Shown: positions 13,443 to 48,026 of the stretch, in pieces
How positions within the stretch are numbered: the stretch's first letter is position 1
Layout of the letters: each line of letters opens with the position of its first letter
NCBI GenBank assembly: GCA_030693205.1
Contig: JAUYBG010000005.1
Location: 9,017 to 73,016 of the forward strand
DNA length: 64,000 bases
Origin: a bacterium
GTDB lineage: Bacteria; Patescibacteriota; Minisyncoccia; JAHIHE01
Direction: 5' to 3'
Position numbers and translations under genes: made by a program
The notes under the pieces: model-generated
What the model was told of the DNA's origin: nothing
The model's input: the letters and a program-made list of their open reading frames with translations, nothing else
Databases searched by the model: none

Positions 13443-13527
13443 GGAGAGGTCGCATAGTGGCCGAGTGCGTCCGCTTGGAAAGCGGATATACCGAAAGGTA
13501 TCGAGGGTTCGACTCCCTCCCTCTCCG
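13443..13527 (+). tRNA. tRNA-Ser (anticodon GGA)
   Basis: Manual fold: acceptor GGAGAGG/CCTCTCC, anticodon loop TTGGAAA (GGA), long variable arm TATACCGAAAGGTATC, T-arm GAGGGTTCGACTCCCTC, discriminator G. Confidence 0.85.
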
Positions 13528-13533
13528 CAGGTA

Positions 13534-17064: not shown

Positions 17065-17952
17065 ATGAGCGATGAAAAAGAAATAAAAAAACCAATAGAT
17101 CCGGAAAAAGAAAAAGCTGGCGAGATTAGAGGTGAAGCGCCGGAAAAAGAGCCAAAAACCTTAGAAGAGGAAATTAAGAGAGACGCGGTTGAAATAGAAA
17201 ACGCGAAAGCGGCTATTACAGAACAACAAGAAAAAGATGAGAAAACTTTGGCGATCAACGATGCGGACGAGTCAAATAAGGAAGAATTTAATAATGGGAA
17301 AAAAGTGATCGGTGAAAAAGTAAAAGCGGCGGAAGGCGAGTATGGGGAAGAAGTTAACAAAATACGGGGCGATGTTGCTAATAAAATAATTTATAATGAT
17401 AATAATATGGAAAATAAAGAAGGAGCAAGCCAAAATTTATCAAAAGAAGAAATAGGGGTAAAAGTGACAAAAATCAATGAACAATTAGATAGTGCGAGAT
17501 TAAGCCCTAGACAAATCACTGAATTAAAAAAAGAGAGAGAAGTATTGTTAAATATGCTTCCAGAGTATCAGGGAGATTGGGGAAAAGGACCGGGAGCGGA
17601 GAATGAGATTACCGATCTTGATGATAATAAAACAATAAAATCGACAGATAGAGAAAGTAAAACTAAAGAAGAACCGAAGGAATTTAAACAAACAACCTTG
17701 GATAAGATTGAGAAATTAATGAGAGACCCTAGCTCTGAACTTTTTATAATCAATAAAGCTGTAAATTTTGAAGAGGAAAAGATACCAAAGCTTGAATTTG
17801 AGCTTGCTGACACGGAGTCGTCGAAAAATAACATACAAAAGGAAGAAAGAATTAAATTCACAAAAGCTAACATTAGAGAACATAAAAAAATATTGGAAAA
17901 TTTAAAAATCAAGGTTAAAGAAATATTAAATAAGCTTGAAACGGAGGATTAA
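17065..17952 (+). CDS. Lys/Glu-rich coiled-coil hypothetical protein
   Basis: Highly charged low-complexity sequence (MSDEKEIKKPIDPEKEKAGEIRGE...), no TM, no catalytic motif. Confidence 0.4.
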   Translation: MSDEKEIKKPIDPEKEKAGEIRGEAPEKEPKTLEEEIKRDAVEIENAKAAITEQQEKDEKTLAINDADESNKEEFNNGKKVIGEKVKAAEGEYGEEVNKIRGDVANKIIYNDNNMENKEGASQNLSKEEIGVKVTKINEQLDSARLSPRQITELKKEREVLLNMLPEYQGDWGKGPGAENEITDLDDNKTIKSTDRESKTKEEPKEFKQTTLDKIEKLMRDPSSELFIINKAVNFEEEKIPKLEFELADTESSKNNIQKEERIKFTKANIREHKKILENLKIKVKEILNKLETED

Positions 17953-29654: not shown

Positions 29655-29729
29655 AGCTCTCGTAGTTCAATGGATAGAATGCGAGCCTCCGAAGCTTGTG
29701 ATACAGGTTCGATTCCTGTCGAGAGCACC
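29655..29729 (+). tRNA. tRNA-Arg (anticodon CCG), CCA encoded
   Basis: Manual fold: acceptor GCTCTCG/CGAGAGC, anticodon loop CTCCGAA (CCG), T-arm ACAGGTTCGATTCCTGT, discriminator A, then CCA. Confidence 0.85.
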
Positions 29730-29745
29730 AATTAAATAATTTTTA

Positions 29746-33744: not shown

Positions 33745-33861
33745 TTAAAGTATGTTAAAAAGCAGGGTATTTCGCTCCGCTTTTTAAAATAGTGTTTTTA
33801 GTTGATTTTAAGCGGGTTTTGGGGTAAAATTAGGTAATAGTTGAATTTAAGGAAAATAATT

Positions 33862-36570
33862 ATGCAAGAACAAGCGAAAGAAAAAATAAAAGCGCTGGTG
33901 GAAAAATACGAGAAAATCAAGAGTTCGGGGAAATTAAAATCATATACCGAAGAAGAAACCAAGAAAGATCTAATCCTTCCTCTTTTGGAAGCGCTGGGCT
34001 GGAATGTTTTCGACAAAAACGAAGTTTCAGCCGAAGAACATATCATTTCTTCTGGCAGGGTTGATTACGGGATCTATCTTAACGGCAGGGCTAAATTTTA
34101 TCTGGAAGCAAAAAAGCTTAGCGCGGATTTGCAGCGAGAGGATTTTGCCAACCAATCAATTCGCTATTCGTGGAACAAAGGCGTGACTTGGGCCGTTTTG
34201 ACCGATTTTGAAAGTTTTAAAGTATTCAATGCTCAAGAAATTGATAAATCGCTGGCGGATAAATTGCTTTTTGAAATCCCTTATACCCAATATCTTGAAC
34301 GTTTTGACGAACAATTAAGCCTTCTTTCCAAAGAAGCGTTTGAAAAAGGCCTGATTGATAAATACGCCGAGGAACACGGCAAAAAACTGCAAAAAATATC
34401 CGTAAGCGCGCTTTTATACAAAGATTTGCAAAAAGCCAGAGATATTCTTACTAAAAGTCTGGCGGCGTGGAATGAAAAAGTTCCCAAAGACCTGCTTGAC
34501 GAAGGCGTGCAAAAATTGCTTGATCGCCTTATATTTCTTAGAGTAGCCGAAGATCGCGGCGTTGAGCCGCCGACATTGATTCCGATGATTAGGCAGTGGC
34601 AGGCCAGAAGCAAACAAGAACGCATTTACAAATCAATGATTGAGAAATTTCGGGAATTCGATAAGATTTATAATTCCAATTTATTCTCGCCGCATCCTTT
34701 TGAAGAGTGGGAAGAATACGACGACTCGACTGAAAAGGTGATTAATATTCTCTATGGTAAAAAAGGATATTATGAATACGATTTCAGCGCGATGCCGGCC
34801 GATGTGTTGGGTAGCGTTTACGAGAATTATCTGGGCTATCGGCTTTCACAGTCCAAAAAAGGAATGACTGTTGATAAGGATGCCAAAAAGCGCAAAGAGC
34901 AAGGTATTTATTACACGCCGACTTTTGTGGTTGATTATATTGTCAAAAACGCTTTGGGTCCGGTTTTGGCTGAATGTAAAAGCATCACCGATCTTAAAAA
35001 AATCAAGGTTCTTGATCCGGCTTGCGGTTCGGGCTCGTTTCTTGTCAAGGCTTTGGAAGCGATAAATGATAAATATAAGGATTTCGGCGCTGACGGCGGG
35101 GTTTATACCAAGCTTCAGATTTTAACCGAAAATATCTACGGGGTTGATCTTGACGAACAGGCGGTGGAAATCGCCAGATTGAATTTGTTGATTAACGCTT
35201 TGGATAGCAAGATTAAACTGCCGTCGCTCGCGAAAAATATTAAAAATGGTAATTCACTGATCTCCGACACCGACGAAGAATTAAAAAAATATTTTGGCAA
35301 AAATTTCAGGGACAAAAAGCCATTTAATTGGCAGGAAGAATTTCCAGAAGTTTTCGCGCAAGGCGGTTTTGATGTGATTATTGGCAATCCGCCGTATATT
35401 TTTGCTCGTGGCGGTAATTTTGATGAAAATGAAAAGAAATATTATTATGATAACTTTAAATTGCAGCAGTATCAACTAAATACTTTTTTGCTTTTTATAG
35501 AGCAAGGTTATAATTTATTAAAACAAAACGGCGAGTTTGGTTTTATTGTTCCCAATAATTGGTTGACTATAAATTCATTTTCAAAACTGAGAGAATTTTT
35601 GCTAAAAAATGTTGCTGATTTAAAAATTATTAACGCTATCGAAACTGTTTTTGATCAAGCTAGTGTGGATACAGGCCTTTTGTTATTTCAAAAATCAAAA
35701 CCGACAGAAATTCAACTTGGGGAATTGAAAGAGGGTAATATGCTCGATTTAACTACCTATAAACCAGAAAATTTCTATCAAAATGATTTTATTATTAATA
35801 TTTCAAAATCTAAGAATGTTAACGATAACAATATTTTGAGTAAATTTGAAAAATGTGTTCAACTTAATGAAATTGCGATTGTAAAATCTGGGCTAAAAGC
35901 ATACGAAGTCGGAAAAGGTATTCCTGCTCAAACTAAACAAATGAAGGATGATAGAGTTTATCATTCAAAAACAAAAATTGATCAAAATTATTTTCCCTAC
36001 TTAGAAGGTAAAAATGTTCAAAGGTTTAAAATAAACTGGAGTGGTTGGTATTTGAAATACGGAAAATGCCTTGCTGCCTCCCGAGAAGAAAAGTTATTTA
36101 AAAGTGAAAGAATTTTAGTTAGGCAAATTCCGTCTCCTTTTCCTAGTTGTATAAACGGTGTATTTACCAATAAAGATTATTTAAACGATATAAACAGCAT
36201 GATAATTTATGCTTCTACTAAAGAGTATAATCTTAAATATATTTTAGGGGTTATAAACTCTAGATTAATTTCTTATTGGTTTGTAAAGACTTTTGATAAA
36301 TTTCAGAGAAAGATATTTCCGCAATTTAAGGTTAATGAGCTTGCAAAATTTCCTATTTATCCAGCCAACAGGAAGCAACAGATGACTGTTGTAAATTTAG
36401 TTAATAAAATGCTTGCGTTTAACGAGGAGCTTTTAGAAGCTCCCAAAAATTCCAATAAATGGAATTCGATAAAAGAGGAAATTGAGAAGACGGATAGAAA
36501 AATAGACAAGGAAGTTTATGAGCTTTATGGATTGAGGGAGGAGGAAATTAGGATCGTGGAAAATATATGA
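33862..36570 (+). CDS. Single-chain Type IIG restriction-modification enzyme (N-terminal PD-(D/E)xK nuclease, gamma-class N6-adenine methyltransferase, C-terminal target-recognition domain)
   Basis: N-terminal HsdR_N-like nuclease motif (GRVDYGIYLNGRAKFYLEAKK); methyltransferase motif I VLDPACGSGSFLV and motif IV GNPPYI; long C-terminal specificity domain. Start set to the ATG at 33862; the track start is TTG. Confidence 0.75.
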   Translation: MQEQAKEKIKALVEKYEKIKSSGKLKSYTEEETKKDLILPLLEALGWNVFDKNEVSAEEHIISSGRVDYGIYLNGRAKFYLEAKKLSADLQREDFANQSIRYSWNKGVTWAVLTDFESFKVFNAQEIDKSLADKLLFEIPYTQYLERFDEQLSLLSKEAFEKGLIDKYAEEHGKKLQKISVSALLYKDLQKARDILTKSLAAWNEKVPKDLLDEGVQKLLDRLIFLRVAEDRGVEPPTLIPMIRQWQARSKQERIYKSMIEKFREFDKIYNSNLFSPHPFEEWEEYDDSTEKVINILYGKKGYYEYDFSAMPADVLGSVYENYLGYRLSQSKKGMTVDKDAKKRKEQGIYYTPTFVVDYIVKNALGPVLAECKSITDLKKIKVLDPACGSGSFLVKALEAINDKYKDFGADGGVYTKLQILTENIYGVDLDEQAVEIARLNLLINALDSKIKLPSLAKNIKNGNSLISDTDEELKKYFGKNFRDKKPFNWQEEFPEVFAQGGFDVIIGNPPYIFARGGNFDENEKKYYYDNFKLQQYQLNTFLLFIEQGYNLLKQNGEFGFIVPNNWLTINSFSKLREFLLKNVADLKIINAIETVFDQASVDTGLLLFQKSKPTEIQLGELKEGNMLDLTTYKPENFYQNDFIINISKSKNVNDNNILSKFEKCVQLNEIAIVKSGLKAYEVGKGIPAQTKQMKDDRVYHSKTKIDQNYFPYLEGKNVQRFKINWSGWYLKYGKCLAASREEKLFKSERILVRQIPSPFPSCINGVFTNKDYLNDINSMIIYASTKEYNLKYILGVINSRLISYWFVKTFDKFQRKIFPQFKVNELAKFPIYPANRKQQMTVVNLVNKMLAFNEELLEAPKNSNKWNSIKEEIEKTDRKIDKEVYELYGLREEEIRIVENI

Positions 36571-37166
36571 ATGTAAAAGATAAACAAATTTTAAAAGATT
36601 CAATTGATGTTATTATTTCAAATATTCCAGCATTGAATATTGCTTGGGGGTTAAGTAGAGCACTTTATGGAGCGGGGTTGAAATTACGGGAACAAAGAGC
36701 TTTGGAGTGGGTGGAGATGGTAAGGGATAATCCAGAAGTTTTTACTCAGGAAATATTGCAACAGGAAGAGTTTCAGGACGGATTTGTGTTTTCTCTTGAA
36801 AAGTATTTAACATCACGAAACGAAGAAAAACGTAGATATTTTCGGAATATATTTTTAGGATATTCTAAAAATGATAATAAATACGAGTTTGAATTGGAAA
36901 GATTTGTTCATGTTTTGTCGCAACTAAGTTTAGAAGATATAGATGTTCTTAAATATGTTAATGTTAAAACTCGCAATAGTTACCAAGTTTTTGACGATTC
37001 AAAGTGCTTATCAAGCATTTATCATTTGATTAATTTAGGTATTTTATACAATGATCCTTCGTCTCGAGTTGGTCCTATTGAATTTCCGTTTGTTTATACT
37101 TCGACACTCGGGATAAATTTTATTAAATACCTTAAAAATGAAAAATGTTTGGCCAATAAAAAATAG
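36567..37166 (+). CDS. Hypothetical protein translationally coupled (ATGA overlap) to the Type IIG RM gene
   Basis: 4-nt start/stop overlap with the upstream gene; no recognisable domain. Confidence 0.5.
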   Translation: MNVKDKQILKDSIDVIISNIPALNIAWGLSRALYGAGLKLREQRALEWVEMVRDNPEVFTQEILQQEEFQDGFVFSLEKYLTSRNEEKRRYFRNIFLGYSKNDNKYEFELERFVHVLSQLSLEDIDVLKYVNVKTRNSYQVFDDSKCLSSIYHLINLGILYNDPSSRVGPIEFPFVYTSTLGINFIKYLKNEKCLANKK

Positions 37167-37175
37167 GAGAAATAT

Positions 37176-38639
37176 ATGAATGATAACGATTTATTAAAAA
37201 TATTTTTAGCCGCGCAAGAATGGCAAACATTCGAATGCAAAAGAGCTGCCATTAAACCTGCTGATTTATTAGAAACAGCGGTTGCTTTTGCAAATGCCGA
37301 TGGCGGTCTTGTTGTTATAGGTCTTGAAGATTCCATGAAGGCTCAAGGAGAAAAAAGGTTTATTGGAATTAGTGAGAACGCGAGTAATGTTTCTGACTTT
37401 TTGAAACTGCTAGAAAAAGAAATCGAACCGCCGCTTATGTTGTGGGGAAAGTTTGAGCTTGATATTACAAACACGCAAGGCAAGGCGGATAAGCTTGTGG
37501 TAATAAATATTAAAAAGAGCAATGATGTGCACTCGCTTAAAAGAGGCGATACTTTCGTGAGGAAAGGCCATCAAAATGTTAAAATTGGCTCTACGGAAAT
37601 AATACGGCTTAAATATGAAAAAGGCGCCATAAAGTTTGAAAATGAAAAATCCGATATTGGCCAGCTTAATGATTTAAACCGCGACCTTTTTGAACAGTAT
37701 AAAAAAGATACATCATCCAGCGGTTTAGATGACTGGCAATTCTTGAAAGACAACGGATTAGCTCTAAATGAGGGTGGCAAATATGAATTAACTAAGGCGG
37801 GAATACTTCTTTTTGGTAAAAATCCGTCTGTTATTCTTAAAAGTAAGTGCGGAATAAAAATTTCTCATTACTATGGAACAAAGCCAACATATACCGATAA
37901 ACCGAATTTTGTAAATCGACCGTTTACGATAGAAGGACCGCTAATAAAGCAAATAGAACAAGCCATTGAATATTTTAGCAGTGTTGTTAAAAAGTCTCCG
38001 CCAAAGTTAATTGGCGCTTCTTTTGTTCCGACCTTTTTAATACCGGAATGGGCATTTCAAGAAGCAATAACTAATGCGGTTATCCATCGCAATTATTTTG
38101 TGCAAGACGATATTCAGGTTAGATTTTTTGATGATCGGGTTGAAATAGAAAGTCCAGGCACATACCCTGGTCATATTACAGTTGACAATATTAGATCGGA
38201 AAGATTTTCAAGAAACCCCTTGATTTTAAGAACACTAAATCGTTTTCAGATTGCTCCTAATTTGGATATTGGTGAGGGCGTTGATCGCATGTTTAAGGTA
38301 ATGAAAGAACAAAATTTATATGAACCGTTGTATTTTCCGCCGACCTTAAGGCCAAATTCCGTATTATTGATTTTATTAAATTTACACAAAGTCCAATATT
38401 GGGATACTGTCAGTAAATACGTAGACGAGAATTATCGAATTACAAACAAGAAAGCTCGCGAAATAACCGGTTTAAATGATGTGTTAAAAATGTCTAGGCT
38501 TTTAAAGGCATGGGTTGATAAAGGATTACTTGAAAAAATTGGATTGGCAAAAAAAGATAGCTATTATAGAAAGCCGGGTCAAGAAATACCTAAGCGTTTA
38601 TTTTCAACAGGTATTGATAATAAAATAAAAAATAGGTAA
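37176..38639 (+). CDS. AlbA_2 (Schlafen-like) DNA-binding domain protein with C-terminal HATPase_c_4-like domain and wHTH
   Basis: N-terminus LLKIFLAAQEWQTFECKRAAIKPADLLETAVAFANADGGLVVIGLED is the AlbA_2/divergent AAA-4 signature; C-terminal ITNAVIHRNY...VEIESPG resembles HATPase_c_4; terminal wHTH-like segment. Confidence 0.6.
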   Translation: MNDNDLLKIFLAAQEWQTFECKRAAIKPADLLETAVAFANADGGLVVIGLEDSMKAQGEKRFIGISENASNVSDFLKLLEKEIEPPLMLWGKFELDITNTQGKADKLVVINIKKSNDVHSLKRGDTFVRKGHQNVKIGSTEIIRLKYEKGAIKFENEKSDIGQLNDLNRDLFEQYKKDTSSSGLDDWQFLKDNGLALNEGGKYELTKAGILLFGKNPSVILKSKCGIKISHYYGTKPTYTDKPNFVNRPFTIEGPLIKQIEQAIEYFSSVVKKSPPKLIGASFVPTFLIPEWAFQEAITNAVIHRNYFVQDDIQVRFFDDRVEIESPGTYPGHITVDNIRSERFSRNPLILRTLNRFQIAPNLDIGEGVDRMFKVMKEQNLYEPLYFPPTLRPNSVLLILLNLHKVQYWDTVSKYVDENYRITNKKAREITGLNDVLKMSRLLKAWVDKGLLEKIGLAKKDSYYRKPGQEIPKRLFSTGIDNKIKNR

Positions 38640-38881
38640 TTATCCTTTGTTTATGCAGGTTTTCTTTAATGTCATTTTCACAGCTTTTAAAATTCAAATT
38701 CTCCAAAAAGCTAGGCTTTTTAAAATAATTTTATACGGATACAAAATTTTCAAAAGATTCAATCAAACCCAAAATCGCGGAAATTTTTGAGCAATATTTC
38801 GCAAAAATCGGACATTGTAATATCTCGACTGAATTTTCTTGCCATGGCATAAATTTTCAGTTACAGTAATTTATTTTTAAA

Positions 38882-39487
38882 ATGATTTTACCTAAAATTT
38901 TTAAAAAGAAAGATATTGAGAAGCCAAACGCAATATATGTGTTTATTGATGCGTCGAATTTATGGCAGGCGCAAAAGGCCAAAGGAAAAATGTTTGATTA
39001 TCAGAAGTTGAAAATATTTTTGAAAATAAAATTTGGCGCTTCCGAGATTCAAGTATTTTATTATACCGCCTATCCCGCCAAAGGAACGCGAGATTACTGC
39101 CTTGACGGCAGACATAAGTTTTTTACCTATTTAAAGAAAGGGCTTGGATTTATTGTGAGAAAGAAAGAATTAAAAAGAATAACAACCCATAGCGATGAAC
39201 TTGGCGATTCAATTCAGGAAAAAGGAAATATGGATGTCGAAATGACGATTGATGTAATTCATCATATGAAAAAGTATGATGTTGCTGTATTATTTACGGG
39301 CGATTCTGATTTTCTTGAGTTGGTAACTTATGTAAAAAATGGAGGCAAAAAAGTTTATATCTTTTCTTCAAAGAATAATATTTCCCAAGAATTGCGAACA
39401 GGCGGGGATGGTTATTTTGATGTACTTAATATTGGAGAAGATATTTGGGGCAGAGAATTAAAGCGTAGGGAGAATATGCCGAAATAA
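38882..39487 (+). CDS. NYN/LabA-like (PIN-fold) domain protein, putative ribonuclease
   Basis: VFIDASNLW...GNMDVEMTIDVI...DVAVLFTGDSDF acidic catalytic pattern of NYN/LabA domains. Confidence 0.6.
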   Translation: MILPKIFKKKDIEKPNAIYVFIDASNLWQAQKAKGKMFDYQKLKIFLKIKFGASEIQVFYYTAYPAKGTRDYCLDGRHKFFTYLKKGLGFIVRKKELKRITTHSDELGDSIQEKGNMDVEMTIDVIHHMKKYDVAVLFTGDSDFLELVTYVKNGGKKVYIFSSKNNISQELRTGGDGYFDVLNIGEDIWGRELKRRENMPK

Positions 39488-39659
39488 AAAGCAACCCTCC
39501 TCGCGGAAGGTTGCCCTTGGATGTAAAACCCTATCAGTTTATGGAAAACCAATAGATACTTATAATATACTCTTTCTAAATTTAAAGTCAATAGTCTATC
39601 CACATAATCAATAAAATTAAAATTTTCCAAAGATCTAATCAAAGAATAAGATAAATATT

Positions 39660-40033
39660 ATGGAAACTACAAAAATAGCTTTATTTAAAGGAAAAAAAAT
39701 TAGACGAATTATTTTTAAAAATGAGTGGTATTTTTCAGTTGTTGATATTATTGAGGCGTTAACGGATAGCGTTCAGCCGAGTAAATATTGGACCGCAATG
39801 AAAGCAAGGGTTAATTTGGAAGATGAAGTTCAGTTATCTACAATTTGTAGACGACTGAAATTCATCGCCAAGAAAATTCAGAAGGCATACCAAAATTAAA
39901 GCAAGATGCCGGCAGGGGAGGGAAGATAGCCGGAAACGCCAGAAAAGAACTGGAAAAAGAATTAGGCAGACCAATTGTGTCTAAAAAGAATTATTTGCAA
40001 AAACCGAAAAATAAAAAGTTATTAGATAAATAA
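39660..40033 (+). pseudogene. Decayed DinD / Bro-N family gene (N-terminal roughly 79 aa in frame 0, C-terminal tail in the -1 frame, middle deleted)
   Basis: N fragment KKIRRIIFKNEWYFSVVDIIEALTDSVQPSKYWTAMKARV parallels the DinD N-terminus (GQEFWSARELAPLLDYRDWRNFQKVLARA). From 39851 a different frame reads ...EGIPKLKQDAGRGGKIAGNARKELEKELGRPIVSKKNYL, matching the DinD C-terminus (...HFDVGRKVRQTIQELGGTMPEEL). A full-length homolog would be about 270 aa. Confidence 0.55.
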
Positions 40034-40147
40034 TATGAACTTAAAAATCTTAAAAATCAATTCATATTGAAAATCTGAACACAAAATTTTCAAAAGATTT
40101 AATTAAAGGACAAGATAAATATTTGGCGCTTTTCAAGAGTATAATTT

Positions 40148-47595: not shown

Positions 47596-48026
47596 GGGTG
47601 GAGATGGCGGGAATTGAACCCGCGTCTAGAAAGAAAACCTTAAAATTATCTACTGATGTAGTCTGTTCGTTGTTTTTCGGATCTTTGGTTAGTGAACAAA
47701 CAAGAATACAAAGATCTTATGCTCGGTCTTTTCGGTGAAAGCTCGGAGCCGGGAGAATCCACCTATCCTAATTAATGACACCAGATAACCGACTATTAGG
47801 AGTTATCGGTCTGATGGGTCGTGAACCTTCAACTTGGCTTGTGGCCGAGTAATATTAGGCTACGGCGGCAGCAAAGCTAGGAACTGCAAAAGCTTGCGCT
47901 ACTGCAGACTTAACTTTACCAATAAGTGTTTTGGCACTTAAGTTTGATTCTAAAAGTTTTACGAGGTTTTAGAATACTCGATCAGCAATTTTAAGTTTCA
48001 GCTTCCTATCGAAGCCGGTCATCCCC
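47596..48026 (-). ncRNA. ssrA: tmRNA (SsrA)
   Basis: 5' end GGGGAUGACCGGCUUCGAUAGG (minus strand from 48026). tRNA-like 3' domain with T-arm CGGGTTCAATTCCCG and acceptor CAUCUCC-A-CC giving a G3:U70 pair (the Ala identity element). Internal tag ORF reading ...GCA GUU CCU AGC UUU GCU GCC GCC GUA GCC UAA (AVPSFAAAVA*). Located immediately downstream of smpB. Confidence 0.8.

What the first reader, a model, noticed from the sequence alone, without database searches (positions are those of the whole stretch)
36567..37166. Uncharacterised 199-aa protein translationally coupled to the Type IIG RM gene
Its ATG overlaps the RM stop codon (ATGA), implying co-translation and co-regulation. I could not match any known domain: no TM, no nuclease or NTPase motif. 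Proteins in this position next to Type IIG enzymes can be specificity or control factors, anti-restriction-sensing components or abortive-infection partners.
Basis: inference. Interest (0 to 1): 0.5.

Follow-up and report, generated by a model that had tools for sequence, protein, structure and literature searches.

The report
Divergent Abi-alpha-like gene behind RM gene
The 199-aa gene is real and is not a dedicated partner of the Type IIG restriction enzyme: it belongs to a large family from candidate-phyla-radiation bacteria that is distantly related to the single-gene phage abortive-infection protein Abi-alpha and sits behind many different defence genes.

Summary
The ORF at 36567-37166 (+, 199 aa) exists, and its ATG overlaps the TGA of the 909-aa Type IIG RM gene (ATGA). 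It is a real gene: at least 260 homologues at 53-67% identity, almost all from Patescibacteria, and 331 representatives at 50% clustering. Pfam, NCBIfam, PADLOC, PHROGs and PDB sequence searches give no significant hit.

An AlphaFold model (pLDDT 89.8) shows an N-terminal helical domain plus a C-terminal winged helix. There is no TM segment.

The coupling to a Type IIG enzyme is not conserved; it occurs in 1 of 25 distinct contexts. The gene lies in Type I RM operons and behind Mrr, KAP NTPase, UvrD or helicase-nuclease genes. It also lies in integrative elements and sometimes stands alone. One relative is fused to Mrr_cat.

Abi_alpha (PF14337) was the only recurrent weak Pfam hit. Profile-profile comparison with true Abi_alpha proteins gives 93% probability over about 190 collinear columns; reversed controls give below 1%.

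Best reading: a divergent, stand-alone Abi-alpha-like defence gene riding on the RM operon, within a small island that also holds AlbA_2/HATPase_c_4 and NYN genes. The mechanism is unknown, as it is for Abi-alpha itself. Moderate interest.

The parts
36567..37166 (+). ORF199: divergent Abi-alpha-like protein (199 aa), the feature under study
   Evidence: The ORF is listed. It has 260 homologues and 331 representatives at 50% clustering. hhalign of the family against Abi_alpha gives 93.7% probability, with controls.
36567..36570 (+). ATGA start/stop overlap with the Type IIG RM gene
   Evidence: Read directly from the sequence. Overlapping or near-abutting starts (within 13 nt) with a co-directional upstream gene occur in 13 of 25 contexts, but the upstream gene differs from context to context.
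36567..36881 (+). N-terminal all-helical domain (aa 1-105). It contains the most conserved motifs: AWGLSKALYGAGLKLRQxRALEWVEM, FQDGF, LEKY..ERNEEKR..F.NIFLGF
36882..37142 (+). C-terminal winged-helix-like domain (aa ~106-192)
33841..36570 (+). Context: Type IIG restriction-modification enzyme (909 aa from TTG; 902 aa from ATG 33862)
   Evidence: Pfam HSDR_N, Eco57I 1.4e-40, N6_Mtase, MmeI_Mtase and TaqI_C 8.7e-25. PADLOC REase_MTase_IIG 2.3e-109. Gene call.
37176..38639 (+). Context: Schlafen AlbA_2 + HATPase_c_4 protein (487 aa). It starts 9 nt downstream of ORF199 and has its own AGGAG ribosome-binding site
   Evidence: Pfam SLFN_AlbA_2 6.4e-16 and HATPase_c_4 2.5e-16. phrog_12156 1.6e-96. 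A PADLOC pAgo-associated model hits at 3.6e-28. It is not found beside any other family member.
38882..39487 (+). Context: NYN (LabA-like) domain protein (201 aa), last gene of the low-GC island
   Evidence: Pfam NYN 1e-20 and PADLOC NYN 3.2e-13. GC is 0.31-0.35 over 35-40 kb, against about 0.40 in the flanks.

Best explanation
ORF199 is a self-contained defence gene of the Abi-alpha (Abiα, DUF4393/PF14337) superfamily. It belongs to a divergent, shortened branch found almost only in Patescibacteria. It is not a subunit, specificity factor or controller of the Type IIG enzyme.

In this genome the gene sits directly behind the RM gene, so it is transcribed with it and translated by re-initiation at the ATGA overlap. 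It would therefore be made constitutively, together with the first-line RM barrier. Together with the AlbA_2/HATPase_c_4 and NYN genes it forms a four-gene, low-GC defence islet.

The protein has an N-terminal helical domain carrying nearly all the invariant residues, and a C-terminal winged helix. By analogy with Abiα of E. faecalis prophage 6, I infer that it acts as a single-protein sentinel. Once a phage escapes restriction, it would abort the infection by premature lysis or growth arrest.

Shown: the gene is real and conserved; its partners vary; it associates with defence genes; it has profile-level homology to Abi_alpha; its fold is as described.

Inferred: that it confers Abi, what triggers it, and what it acts on.
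For: 1) The family is large and well conserved, and it has no fixed neighbour. There are 260 homologues and 331 representatives. There are 25 distinct contexts.

2) The contexts are dominated by defence genes.
- Between hsdM and hsdS of Type I RM operons: L011, L020/L021, L042.
- Behind HsdR: L028.
- Behind HsdR-YgjP-KAP NTPase: L046.
- Behind Mrr_cat: L023, L029.
- Behind a helicase-nuclease plus KAP NTPase: L025.
- Behind UvrD: L044.
- Behind an AAA_11/12 + MTES_1575 protein: L037.
- In an island with AbiEii, GmrSD and an EcoRI methylase: L004.
- Near Type II RM genes: L048, L010.
- At the edge of serine-recombinase/Prim-Pol elements: L006, L013.
In total, 16 of 25 contexts have an RM, nuclease or NTPase defence-type gene within a few genes, and 2 more are integrative elements.

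3) Abi_alpha is the only recurrent weak Pfam hit: 5 of 40 and 12 of 149 members, best E 5.9e-4. P0014 residues 85-138 align to profile positions 41-93.

4) Profile-profile comparison supports homology. hhalign of the family (A2) against 51 bona fide PF14337 proteins (A4) gives probability 93.7%, E 1.8e-7, over 188 collinear columns spanning both domains. An independent re-alignment of 66 representatives gives 93.1%. Reversed controls give 0.2-0.6%. Block-shuffled controls score at most 33, against 55.6 for the real comparison. The family HMM scores Abi_alpha proteins up to 27 bits, against 10 bits for an unrelated control family.

5) The most conserved positions of the two families coincide in that alignment. 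The pairs are W27/W28, E78/E82, Y80/Y87, F96/F97, D124/D128, L154/L181, G182/G276 and F185/F279.

6) Abiα is a single-gene Abi of 272 aa. It is found on prophages and in phage-resistance islands, and it causes premature lysis (PMC6356687). A phiNM1 homologue is the most abundant prophage protein in lysogens (bioRxiv 10.1101/2025.10.23.684294).
Against: - ORF199 itself gives no Pfam Abi_alpha hit at E <= 1. The one relative examined individually (P0014) reaches 16 bits against a cut-off of 29.
- hhalign support depends on the alignment used: 5.7% with the shallow A1, 22% with the noisy A3, and 3.7% for the long subfamily alone, although in the same register.
- Several Abi_alpha invariants (P72, G78-P79, R183, C283) are not shared.
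- No structural comparison with an Abi_alpha model was possible. The BFVD search gave only one weak, unnamed hit (E 4.9e-3, TM 0.42).
- No homologue was found in phage or plasmid records or in IMG/VR, whereas canonical Abiα is mostly prophage-borne.
- The mechanism of Abiα is itself unknown, so homology predicts a phenotype and not a biochemistry.
- No experiment exists for any member of this family.
Confidence: 0.55

Rival explanations
1. Modular adaptor or sensor. The protein does not act alone. It plugs into whichever effector is encoded beside it (an RM nuclease, Mrr, a KAP NTPase, or a small membrane protein) and gates or redirects that effector on infection.
For: - The gene is co-directional with the upstream gene, within 13 nt or overlapping it, in 13 of 25 contexts.
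- One relative (P0210, 514 aa) is a direct fusion to an Mrr_cat nuclease. Separate Mrr_cat genes lie immediately upstream in L023 and L029.
- In three contexts with different upstream genes (L022, L046, L025/26), the gene is followed by a homologous 164-173-aa protein with four TM segments, overlapping by 4 nt or separated by 8 nt. In L004 and L044 a TM-anchored DUF2726 protein follows.
- The winged helix is near neutral (pI 6.9), which suits protein binding as well as DNA binding.
Against: - The partners belong to unrelated families, so one conserved interface (53-67% identity across the family) is hard to reconcile with them.
- Some members stand alone or sit among small ORFs of mobile elements, with no candidate effector nearby (L001, L010, L013).
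- Tight gene spacing is usual in small CPR genomes.
- Canonical Abiα works as a single cloned gene (PMC6356687).
Confidence: 0.22
2. Winged-helix transcription regulator of the defence islet, a functional analogue of the regulators that accompany many defence systems.
Against: - The putative recognition helix (aa 145-156, consensus NIYNLINLGIL) is hydrophobic or neutral. The domain pI is 6.9 and the protein pI is 6.75.
- The strongest conservation lies in the non-HTH N-terminal domain.
- The gene usually lies downstream of the defence gene, not upstream.
- No conserved operator-like repeat lies upstream of the RM gene.
- The profile match is to Abi_alpha and not to a regulator family.
Confidence: 0.1
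3. Dedicated accessory of the Type IIG RM enzyme: a specificity, control or anti-restriction-sensing subunit.
For: The ATGA overlap in the window. The family is often close to RM genes in general: 9 of 25 contexts.
Against: - No Type IIG neighbour occurs in any other context.
- The enzyme already carries its own TaqI_C target-recognition domain.
- ORF199 has no Methylase_S hit and no Xre-type HTH hit.
- The same family sits behind non-RM genes and in mobile elements.
Confidence: 0.03

Closest known systems
Abi-alpha (Abiα, EF2833 of E. faecalis V583 prophage 6; Pfam PF14337 Abi_alpha, formerly DUF4393; phiNM1 ABF73047/A0EWI8)
   Same: - Both are single genes without a fixed partner.
- Both are found on mobile elements and in phage-resistance islands.
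- The profile-profile match is collinear over both domains at 93% probability.
- Shared conserved positions include W near the N-terminus, LE..Y, F in the 'IFLGF/MFAKLI' helix, 'QLS..D..L', 'L..LG(I/L)(L/I)', and the C-terminal 'G..F'.
- The mechanism is unknown in both.
   Different: - ORF199 is below the Pfam threshold: no hit for ORF199 itself, and 16 bits against 29 for the one relative examined individually, P0014.
- It is 199 aa against 250-296 aa, lacking about 60 residues between the 'LGIL' helix and the C-terminal strand-helix.
- The Abi_alpha invariants P72, G78-P79, R183 and C283 are not conserved. ORF199 has its own invariant block, ALEWVEM...FQDGF.
- The hosts are Patescibacteria rather than Firmicutes or Pasteurellaceae.
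- No phage-borne copy was found.
- The Abi phenotype is untested.
Defence genes nested in Type I RM operons (e.g. the PrrC anticodon nuclease within the prr/hsd locus; from general knowledge, not tested here)
   Same: The family gene is repeatedly inserted between hsdM and hsdS or behind hsdR. It lies alongside other inserts there: DUF3800, Fic, HEPN, AAA_14, Trypsin_2 and AbiEii. This is the classical 'second line behind RM' arrangement.
   Different: There is no sequence or domain relationship to PrrC or RloC: no ATPase and no nuclease motif. The gene is not restricted to RM loci.
RM controller (C) proteins
   Same: Small proteins encoded within RM operons that carry a helix-turn-helix-type fold.
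   Different: C proteins are Xre-type HTH proteins of about 80-100 aa, encoded upstream of or overlapping the R gene, with C-box operators. ORF199 is 199 aa, lies downstream, and has a near-neutral winged helix plus a large conserved helical domain. Its linkage to RM is not conserved.
MarR/PadR/HrcA-type winged-helix proteins
   Different: There is no sequence similarity. The N-terminal domain is unrelated, no basic recognition helix is present, and no dimerisation helices of MarR type are evident.

Membership tests
Abi_alpha (PF14337) | Match to the Pfam HMM at or above the gathering score (29 bits) | tested here: not met
   ORF199 gives no Abi_alpha hit at E <= 1. Among relatives, 5 of 40 and 12 of 149 give weak hits, best E 5.9e-4. 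P0014 scores 16.2 bits.
Abi_alpha (PF14337) | Profile-level homology over the whole domain | tested here: met
   hhalign A2 vs A4 gives 93.7%, E 1.8e-7, 188 columns. A re-aligned set gives 93.1%. Reversed and shuffled controls score 16-33 against 55.6. The family HMM scores Abi_alpha proteins up to 27 bits, against a control of 10 bits. Support is weaker with alignments A1, A3 and the long subfamily (5.7%, 22% and 3.7%).
Abi_alpha (PF14337) | Family-invariant residues conserved | tested here: inconclusive
   Eight highly conserved positions coincide: W, E, Y, F, D, L, G, F. The Abi_alpha invariants P72, G78, P79, R183 and C283 have no counterpart.
Abi_alpha (PF14337) | Stand-alone gene on prophages, mobile elements or defence islands | tested here: met
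   There are 25 contexts with no fixed partner. Sixteen have defence-type neighbours and 2 are integrative elements. No copy was found in phage records or IMG/VR.
Abi_alpha (PF14337) | Abortive-infection phenotype (premature lysis, loss of plaquing) | not testable with these tools
   This needs expression and phage challenge. It is reported for EF2833 only (PMC6356687).
RM controller (C) protein | Small Xre-type HTH protein upstream of the R gene, with linkage to RM conserved | tested here: not met
   No HTH_3 or Xre hit. The protein is 199 aa and lies downstream of the RM gene. A Type IIG neighbour occurs in 1 of 25 contexts.
RM specificity subunit (HsdS/TRD) | Methylase_S or TaqI_C-type target recognition domain | tested here: not met
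   ORF199 has no such hit. The Type IIG enzyme carries its own TaqI_C. In Type I loci a separate HsdS is present next to the family gene.
Winged-helix DNA-binding regulators (MarR/PadR-like) | Winged-helix fold | tested here: met
Winged-helix DNA-binding regulators (MarR/PadR-like) | Basic recognition helix or wing, and sequence membership in a regulator family | tested here: not met
   No Pfam regulator family is hit. The recognition-helix consensus NIYNLINLGIL is non-basic. The domain pI is 6.9.

The most novel reading that the evidence does not exclude
The family is not just another Abi. It would be a portable infection-sensing module of CPR bacteria that couples to whatever effector lies beside it: an RM or Mrr nuclease, a KAP NTPase, or a 4-TM membrane protein. 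This would turn constitutive nucleases into infection-triggered suicide or defence devices. Supporting observations are the Mrr_cat fusion, the conserved X-4TM pair, and the near-universal tight operon coupling to an upstream defence gene. If true, it would also offer the first mechanistic handle on the whole Abi-alpha superfamily.
Probability: 0.15. Interest if true: 0.7.

Novelty: new variant of a known kind. Interest (0 to 1): 0.38.

Why it matters
- Defence repertoires of Patescibacteria are poorly charted, and standard tools (PADLOC, Pfam, NCBIfam) do not recognise this gene.
- Linking an unannotated CPR family of more than 300 clusters to Abi-alpha extends that superfamily to a new phylum-level group.
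- The link supplies a compact 199-aa version with a confident structural model.
- It gives a set of natural gene neighbourhoods and fusions (Mrr_cat, a 4-TM partner) that could guide work on how Abi-alpha proteins act, which is still unknown.
- For annotation of this window, it corrects the tempting reading 'RM accessory subunit' to 'independent second-line defence gene sharing the RM operon'.

Tried and rejected
- Direct HMM searches of ORF199 against Pfam, NCBIfam, PADLOC and PHROGs gave nothing below E = 0.05.
- PDB sequence searches, with the single sequence and with a profile, gave nothing below E = 0.09.
- A per-member PHROGs scan of 149 relatives showed no recurrent annotated family.
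- tblastn against GenBank phages and PLSDB plasmids found no match.
- The IMG/VR pattern scan confirmed no relative.
- BFVD gave one weak unnamed hit, A0A291AUV8.
- HEPN hypothesis: rejected, because no conserved Rx4-6H motif appears in the alignment.
- Membrane-protein hypothesis for the glycine-rich conserved helix (aa 21-40): rejected on hydropathy.
- Partnership with the downstream AlbA_2/HATPase_c_4 or NYN genes: rejected, because neither occurs near any other family member.
- My first guess for the phiNM1 DUF4393 gene (the 310-aa ORF at 1402-2334) was wrong; it has no PF14337 annotation. It was reused as a negative control.
- Alignment A3 (149 representatives, including fragments and a thymidylate-kinase chimera) was too noisy for hhalign, giving 22%.
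Full report
**Observation**

The ORF 36567..37166 (+, ATG, 199 aa) is present.

The upstream ORF is a Type IIG restriction-modification enzyme. Pfam finds HSDR_N, Eco57I (1.4e-40), N6_Mtase, MmeI_Mtase and TaqI_C (8.7e-25). PADLOC finds REase_MTase_IIG at 2.3e-109. A public gene call starts it at ATG 33862, giving 902 aa.

Nine nucleotides downstream of ORF199 starts a 487-aa Schlafen AlbA_2 + HATPase_c_4 protein. It is preceded by a good AGGAG ribosome-binding site. A 201-aa NYN-domain protein follows. These four genes occupy a stretch of lower G+C, 0.31-0.35 against about 0.40 in the flanks. The simple scan found no convincing terminator between the RM gene, ORF199 and the AlbA_2 gene. Co-transcription, and translational coupling of ORF199 to the RM gene, are therefore plausible but not shown.

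**Is it a gene?**

Yes. A search of 5.8 billion proteins returned 260 homologues. The 120 listed are at E <= 4e-57, are 53-67% identical, and nearly all are 190-207 aa long with a conserved start, MNxKDKQI. An exhaustive profile search found 331 representatives at 50% clustering, 234 of them below 1e-10. The named sources are Patescibacteria: Paceibacterota, Saccharibacteria, Kaiser-, Davies-, Buchanan-, Dojka- and Amesbacteria. A few bins are assigned elsewhere.

A longer subfamily (275-308 aa) keeps the N-terminal ~135 positions and the C-terminal end, and carries an insertion of about 90 residues.

**What standard annotation gives**

Nothing. There is no significant hit in Pfam, NCBIfam, PADLOC or PHROGs, or in PDB sequences with the single sequence or a profile. 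There is no TM segment (maximum hydropathy 1.21) and the pI is 6.75.

**Structure**

With 85 diverse homologues, AlphaFold2 gives pLDDT 89.8 and pTM 0.85. An earlier model built from 40 close homologues gave 77.7.

- Residues ~1-105 form an all-helical domain. It carries most of the invariant residues: W27, K39, R41, E47, W48, E50, Q70, F73, E78, F96.
- Residues ~106-192 form a winged-helix-like domain.

**Neighbourhood survey**

I assembled 48 loci around family members, plus the window, from assemblies and GTDB genomes. They collapse to 25 distinct contexts.

No homologue of the Type IIG enzyme, the AlbA_2 protein or the NYN protein lies near the family gene in any of the 37 other loci searched by tblastn. 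Only the methyltransferase core matches, to Type I HsdM and one Type II methylase. None appears in the Pfam-annotated loci fetched later either.

The gene is found in these positions:
- Between hsdM and hsdS of Type I operons, next to other inserted genes. The arrangements are DUF3800 and Fic in L011; an AAA_14/DUF4143 ATPase and a HEPN protein in L020/L021; and Trypsin_2 and AbiEii in L042.
- Directly behind HsdR (L028).
- Behind HsdR-YgjP-KAP NTPase (L046).
- Behind a ResIII/TnsA-like helicase-nuclease plus KAP NTPase (L025/26).
- Directly behind Mrr_cat proteins (L023, L029).
- Behind a UvrD helicase (L044).
- Behind an AAA_11/12 helicase with an MTES_1575 nuclease domain (L037).
- Behind an AAA_15/21 ATPase (L033).
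- In an island with AbiEii, an EcoRI-type methylase, GmrSD, DUF2254 and DUF2726 (L004/L022).
- Near Type II RM genes (L048, L010).
- At the edge of integrated elements with a serine recombinase and a Prim-Pol primase (L006-9/L018, L013-17).
- Alone among housekeeping genes (L001).

The tally is:

| Context type | Contexts (of 25) |
|---|---|
| RM genes within about five genes | 9 |
| Other nuclease/NTPase defence-type genes adjacent | 7 |
| Integrative element | 2 |
| Uninformative | 7 |

The gene is co-directional with the upstream gene and within 13 nt of it, or overlapping it, in 13 of 25 contexts. Tight coupling is therefore a property of the family, or of compact CPR operons, and not of a specific partnership.

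Additional observations:
- One relative (P0210, 514 aa) is fused to a C-terminal Mrr_cat nuclease.
- In three contexts with different upstream genes, the family gene is followed by a homologous 164-173-aa protein with four hydrophobic segments, overlapping by 4 nt or 8 nt downstream. In two others a TM-anchored DUF2726 protein follows.

**Remote homology**

Scanning every family member against Pfam gave one recurrent weak hit, Abi_alpha (PF14337, formerly DUF4393). It appeared in 5 of 40 and 12 of 149 members, best E 5.9e-4. In P0014, residues 85-138 align to profile positions 41-93 of 196.

To test this, I located a bona fide member. This is phiNM1 ABF73047 (DQ530359, 8828-9685, minus strand), found from a preprint that names the DUF4393 protein of that phage. 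Its homologues are all annotated PF14337. I aligned 51 of them as alignment A4.

Results:
- hhalign of the ORF199 family (A2) against A4 gives 93.7% probability, E 1.8e-7, over 188 collinear columns from the N-terminal W motif to the C-terminal helix.
- Reversing either alignment gives 0.4-0.6% (score 16-18).
- Twenty-four block-shuffles of A4 give scores of 17-33, against 55.6 for the real comparison.
- An independent MAFFT alignment of 66 short representatives gives 93.1%, with a reversed control of 0.4%.
- The family HMM scores Abi_alpha proteins up to 27 bits. An unrelated helical control family reaches 10 bits.

Eight of the best-conserved positions in the two families coincide in the alignment: W27/W28, E78/E82, Y80/Y87, F96/F97, D124/D128, L154/L181, G182/G276 and F185/F279.

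Support is weaker in several respects:
- The shallow alignment A1 gives 5.7%.
- The noisy A3 gives 22%.
- The long subfamily alone gives 3.7%, in the same register.
- Several Abi_alpha invariants (P72, G78-P79, R183, C283) are not shared.

I rate homology at about 0.7.

**What Abi-alpha is**

Abiα (EF2833, 272 aa) of E. faecalis V583 prophage 6 is a single-gene abortive-infection system. It blocks a Picovirinae phage and causes lysis about 10 minutes early. Homologues lie mostly on prophages and sometimes in phage-resistance islands next to other Abi genes. Its mechanism is unknown (PMC6356687). In S. aureus lysogens the phiNM1 homologue is the most abundant prophage protein. A full-text search found no later mechanistic work.

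**Interpretation**

The evidence fits a self-contained, horizontally mobile defence gene. In this genome it has landed directly behind a Type IIG RM gene and shares its expression. I commit to the model that ORF199 is a divergent Abi-alpha-type sentinel giving a second line of defence behind restriction.

Steps shown: the gene is real, its partners vary, it is linked to defence islands, it has profile-level homology, and its fold is as described.

Steps inferred: the Abi phenotype, the trigger and the target.

The main rival is that the protein is a sensor or adaptor working through adjacent effectors. The Mrr_cat fusion, the conserved 4-TM partner and the tight coupling favour it. The unrelated partners and the stand-alone copies argue against it. 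A winged-helix regulator role and a dedicated RM-accessory role are less likely, for the reasons given under the rival explanations.

**Novelty and score**

The gene is not recognised by current defence or domain libraries, and the family appears undescribed. It is best seen as a shortened, CPR-specific variant of a known (though mechanistically obscure) kind, not as a new category. Interest is moderate. The specific claim of an RM-coupled accessory factor dissolves. The family link, the confident model and the natural fusions and partners remain useful leads for Abi-alpha biology and for CPR defence annotation.

Noticed in passing
window 38743-38767, 39619-39643, 40083-40107: A 25-nt motif, AAAATTTTCMAAAGATYTAATYAAA, occurs exactly three times in the 64-kb window, against 0 expected. 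All three copies lie in the intergenic gaps that bound the NYN gene and the 79-aa ORF 39660-39899. The last copy is 41 nt upstream of the HI0933-like flavoprotein gene. An 81-nt stretch around copies 2 and 3 is 70% identical (D2). It looks like a promoter or target region duplicated by successive cassette insertions.
   Followed up: partly
window 37176-38639 and 38882-39487: A Schlafen AlbA_2 + HATPase_c_4 protein lies here (phrog_12156 1.6e-96; a PADLOC pAgo-associated model at 3.6e-28), together with a NYN/LabA-like nuclease-fold protein. They complete a four-gene low-GC islet with the RM gene and ORF199. Neither accompanies ORF199 homologues elsewhere.
   Followed up: partly
L022 8585-9079, L046 5585-6097, L025 8600-9121 (+1 genes of family members): A homologous small protein of 164-173 aa with four predicted TM segments directly follows the ORF199 homologue in three contexts with different upstream genes. 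The arrangements are DUF2254-367aa-X-4TM and KAP NTPase-X-4TM. This may be a two-gene module in one branch of the family.
   Followed up: partly
P0210 (514 aa; metagenomic protein, no locus fetched): This protein is a natural fusion of the long form of the family domain (residues ~30-290) with a C-terminal Mrr_cat restriction-endonuclease domain at residues 346-412, E 5.3e-5. Another representative, not identified, carries a SLOG cluster2 hit at 7.5e-5.
   Followed up: partly
L020 4244-9756 and L021 4418-9732: These Type I RM operons carry three inserted genes between hsdM and hsdS: an AAA_14/DUF4143 ATPase (474-481 aa), a HEPN protein (203-212 aa) and the ORF199 homologue. This is a striking example of defence genes stacked inside an hsd operon.
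   Followed up: partly
window 36561-36581 and 37170-37190: The translation start regions of ORF199 and of the AlbA_2 gene share the 13-nt string AAATATATGAATG, and 18 of 21 nt overall (D7). Both proteins start with MN. This could be coincidence or a shared initiation context.
   Followed up: no
window 17065-17952 (+): A 295-aa ORF, extremely rich in Glu and Lys, lies in a 1-kb stretch with extreme purine skew: GC skew 0.33 and AT skew 0.40. Its function was not examined.
   Followed up: no
window 47597-48026 (-), 13443-13528 (+), 29656-29730 (+): A tmRNA gene (tag peptide AKTLIGKVKSAVAQAFAVPSFAAAVA) and two tRNA genes (Ser-GGA and Arg-CCG) are present. None abuts the defence islet, so there is no obvious tRNA-linked integration site.
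   Followed up: no
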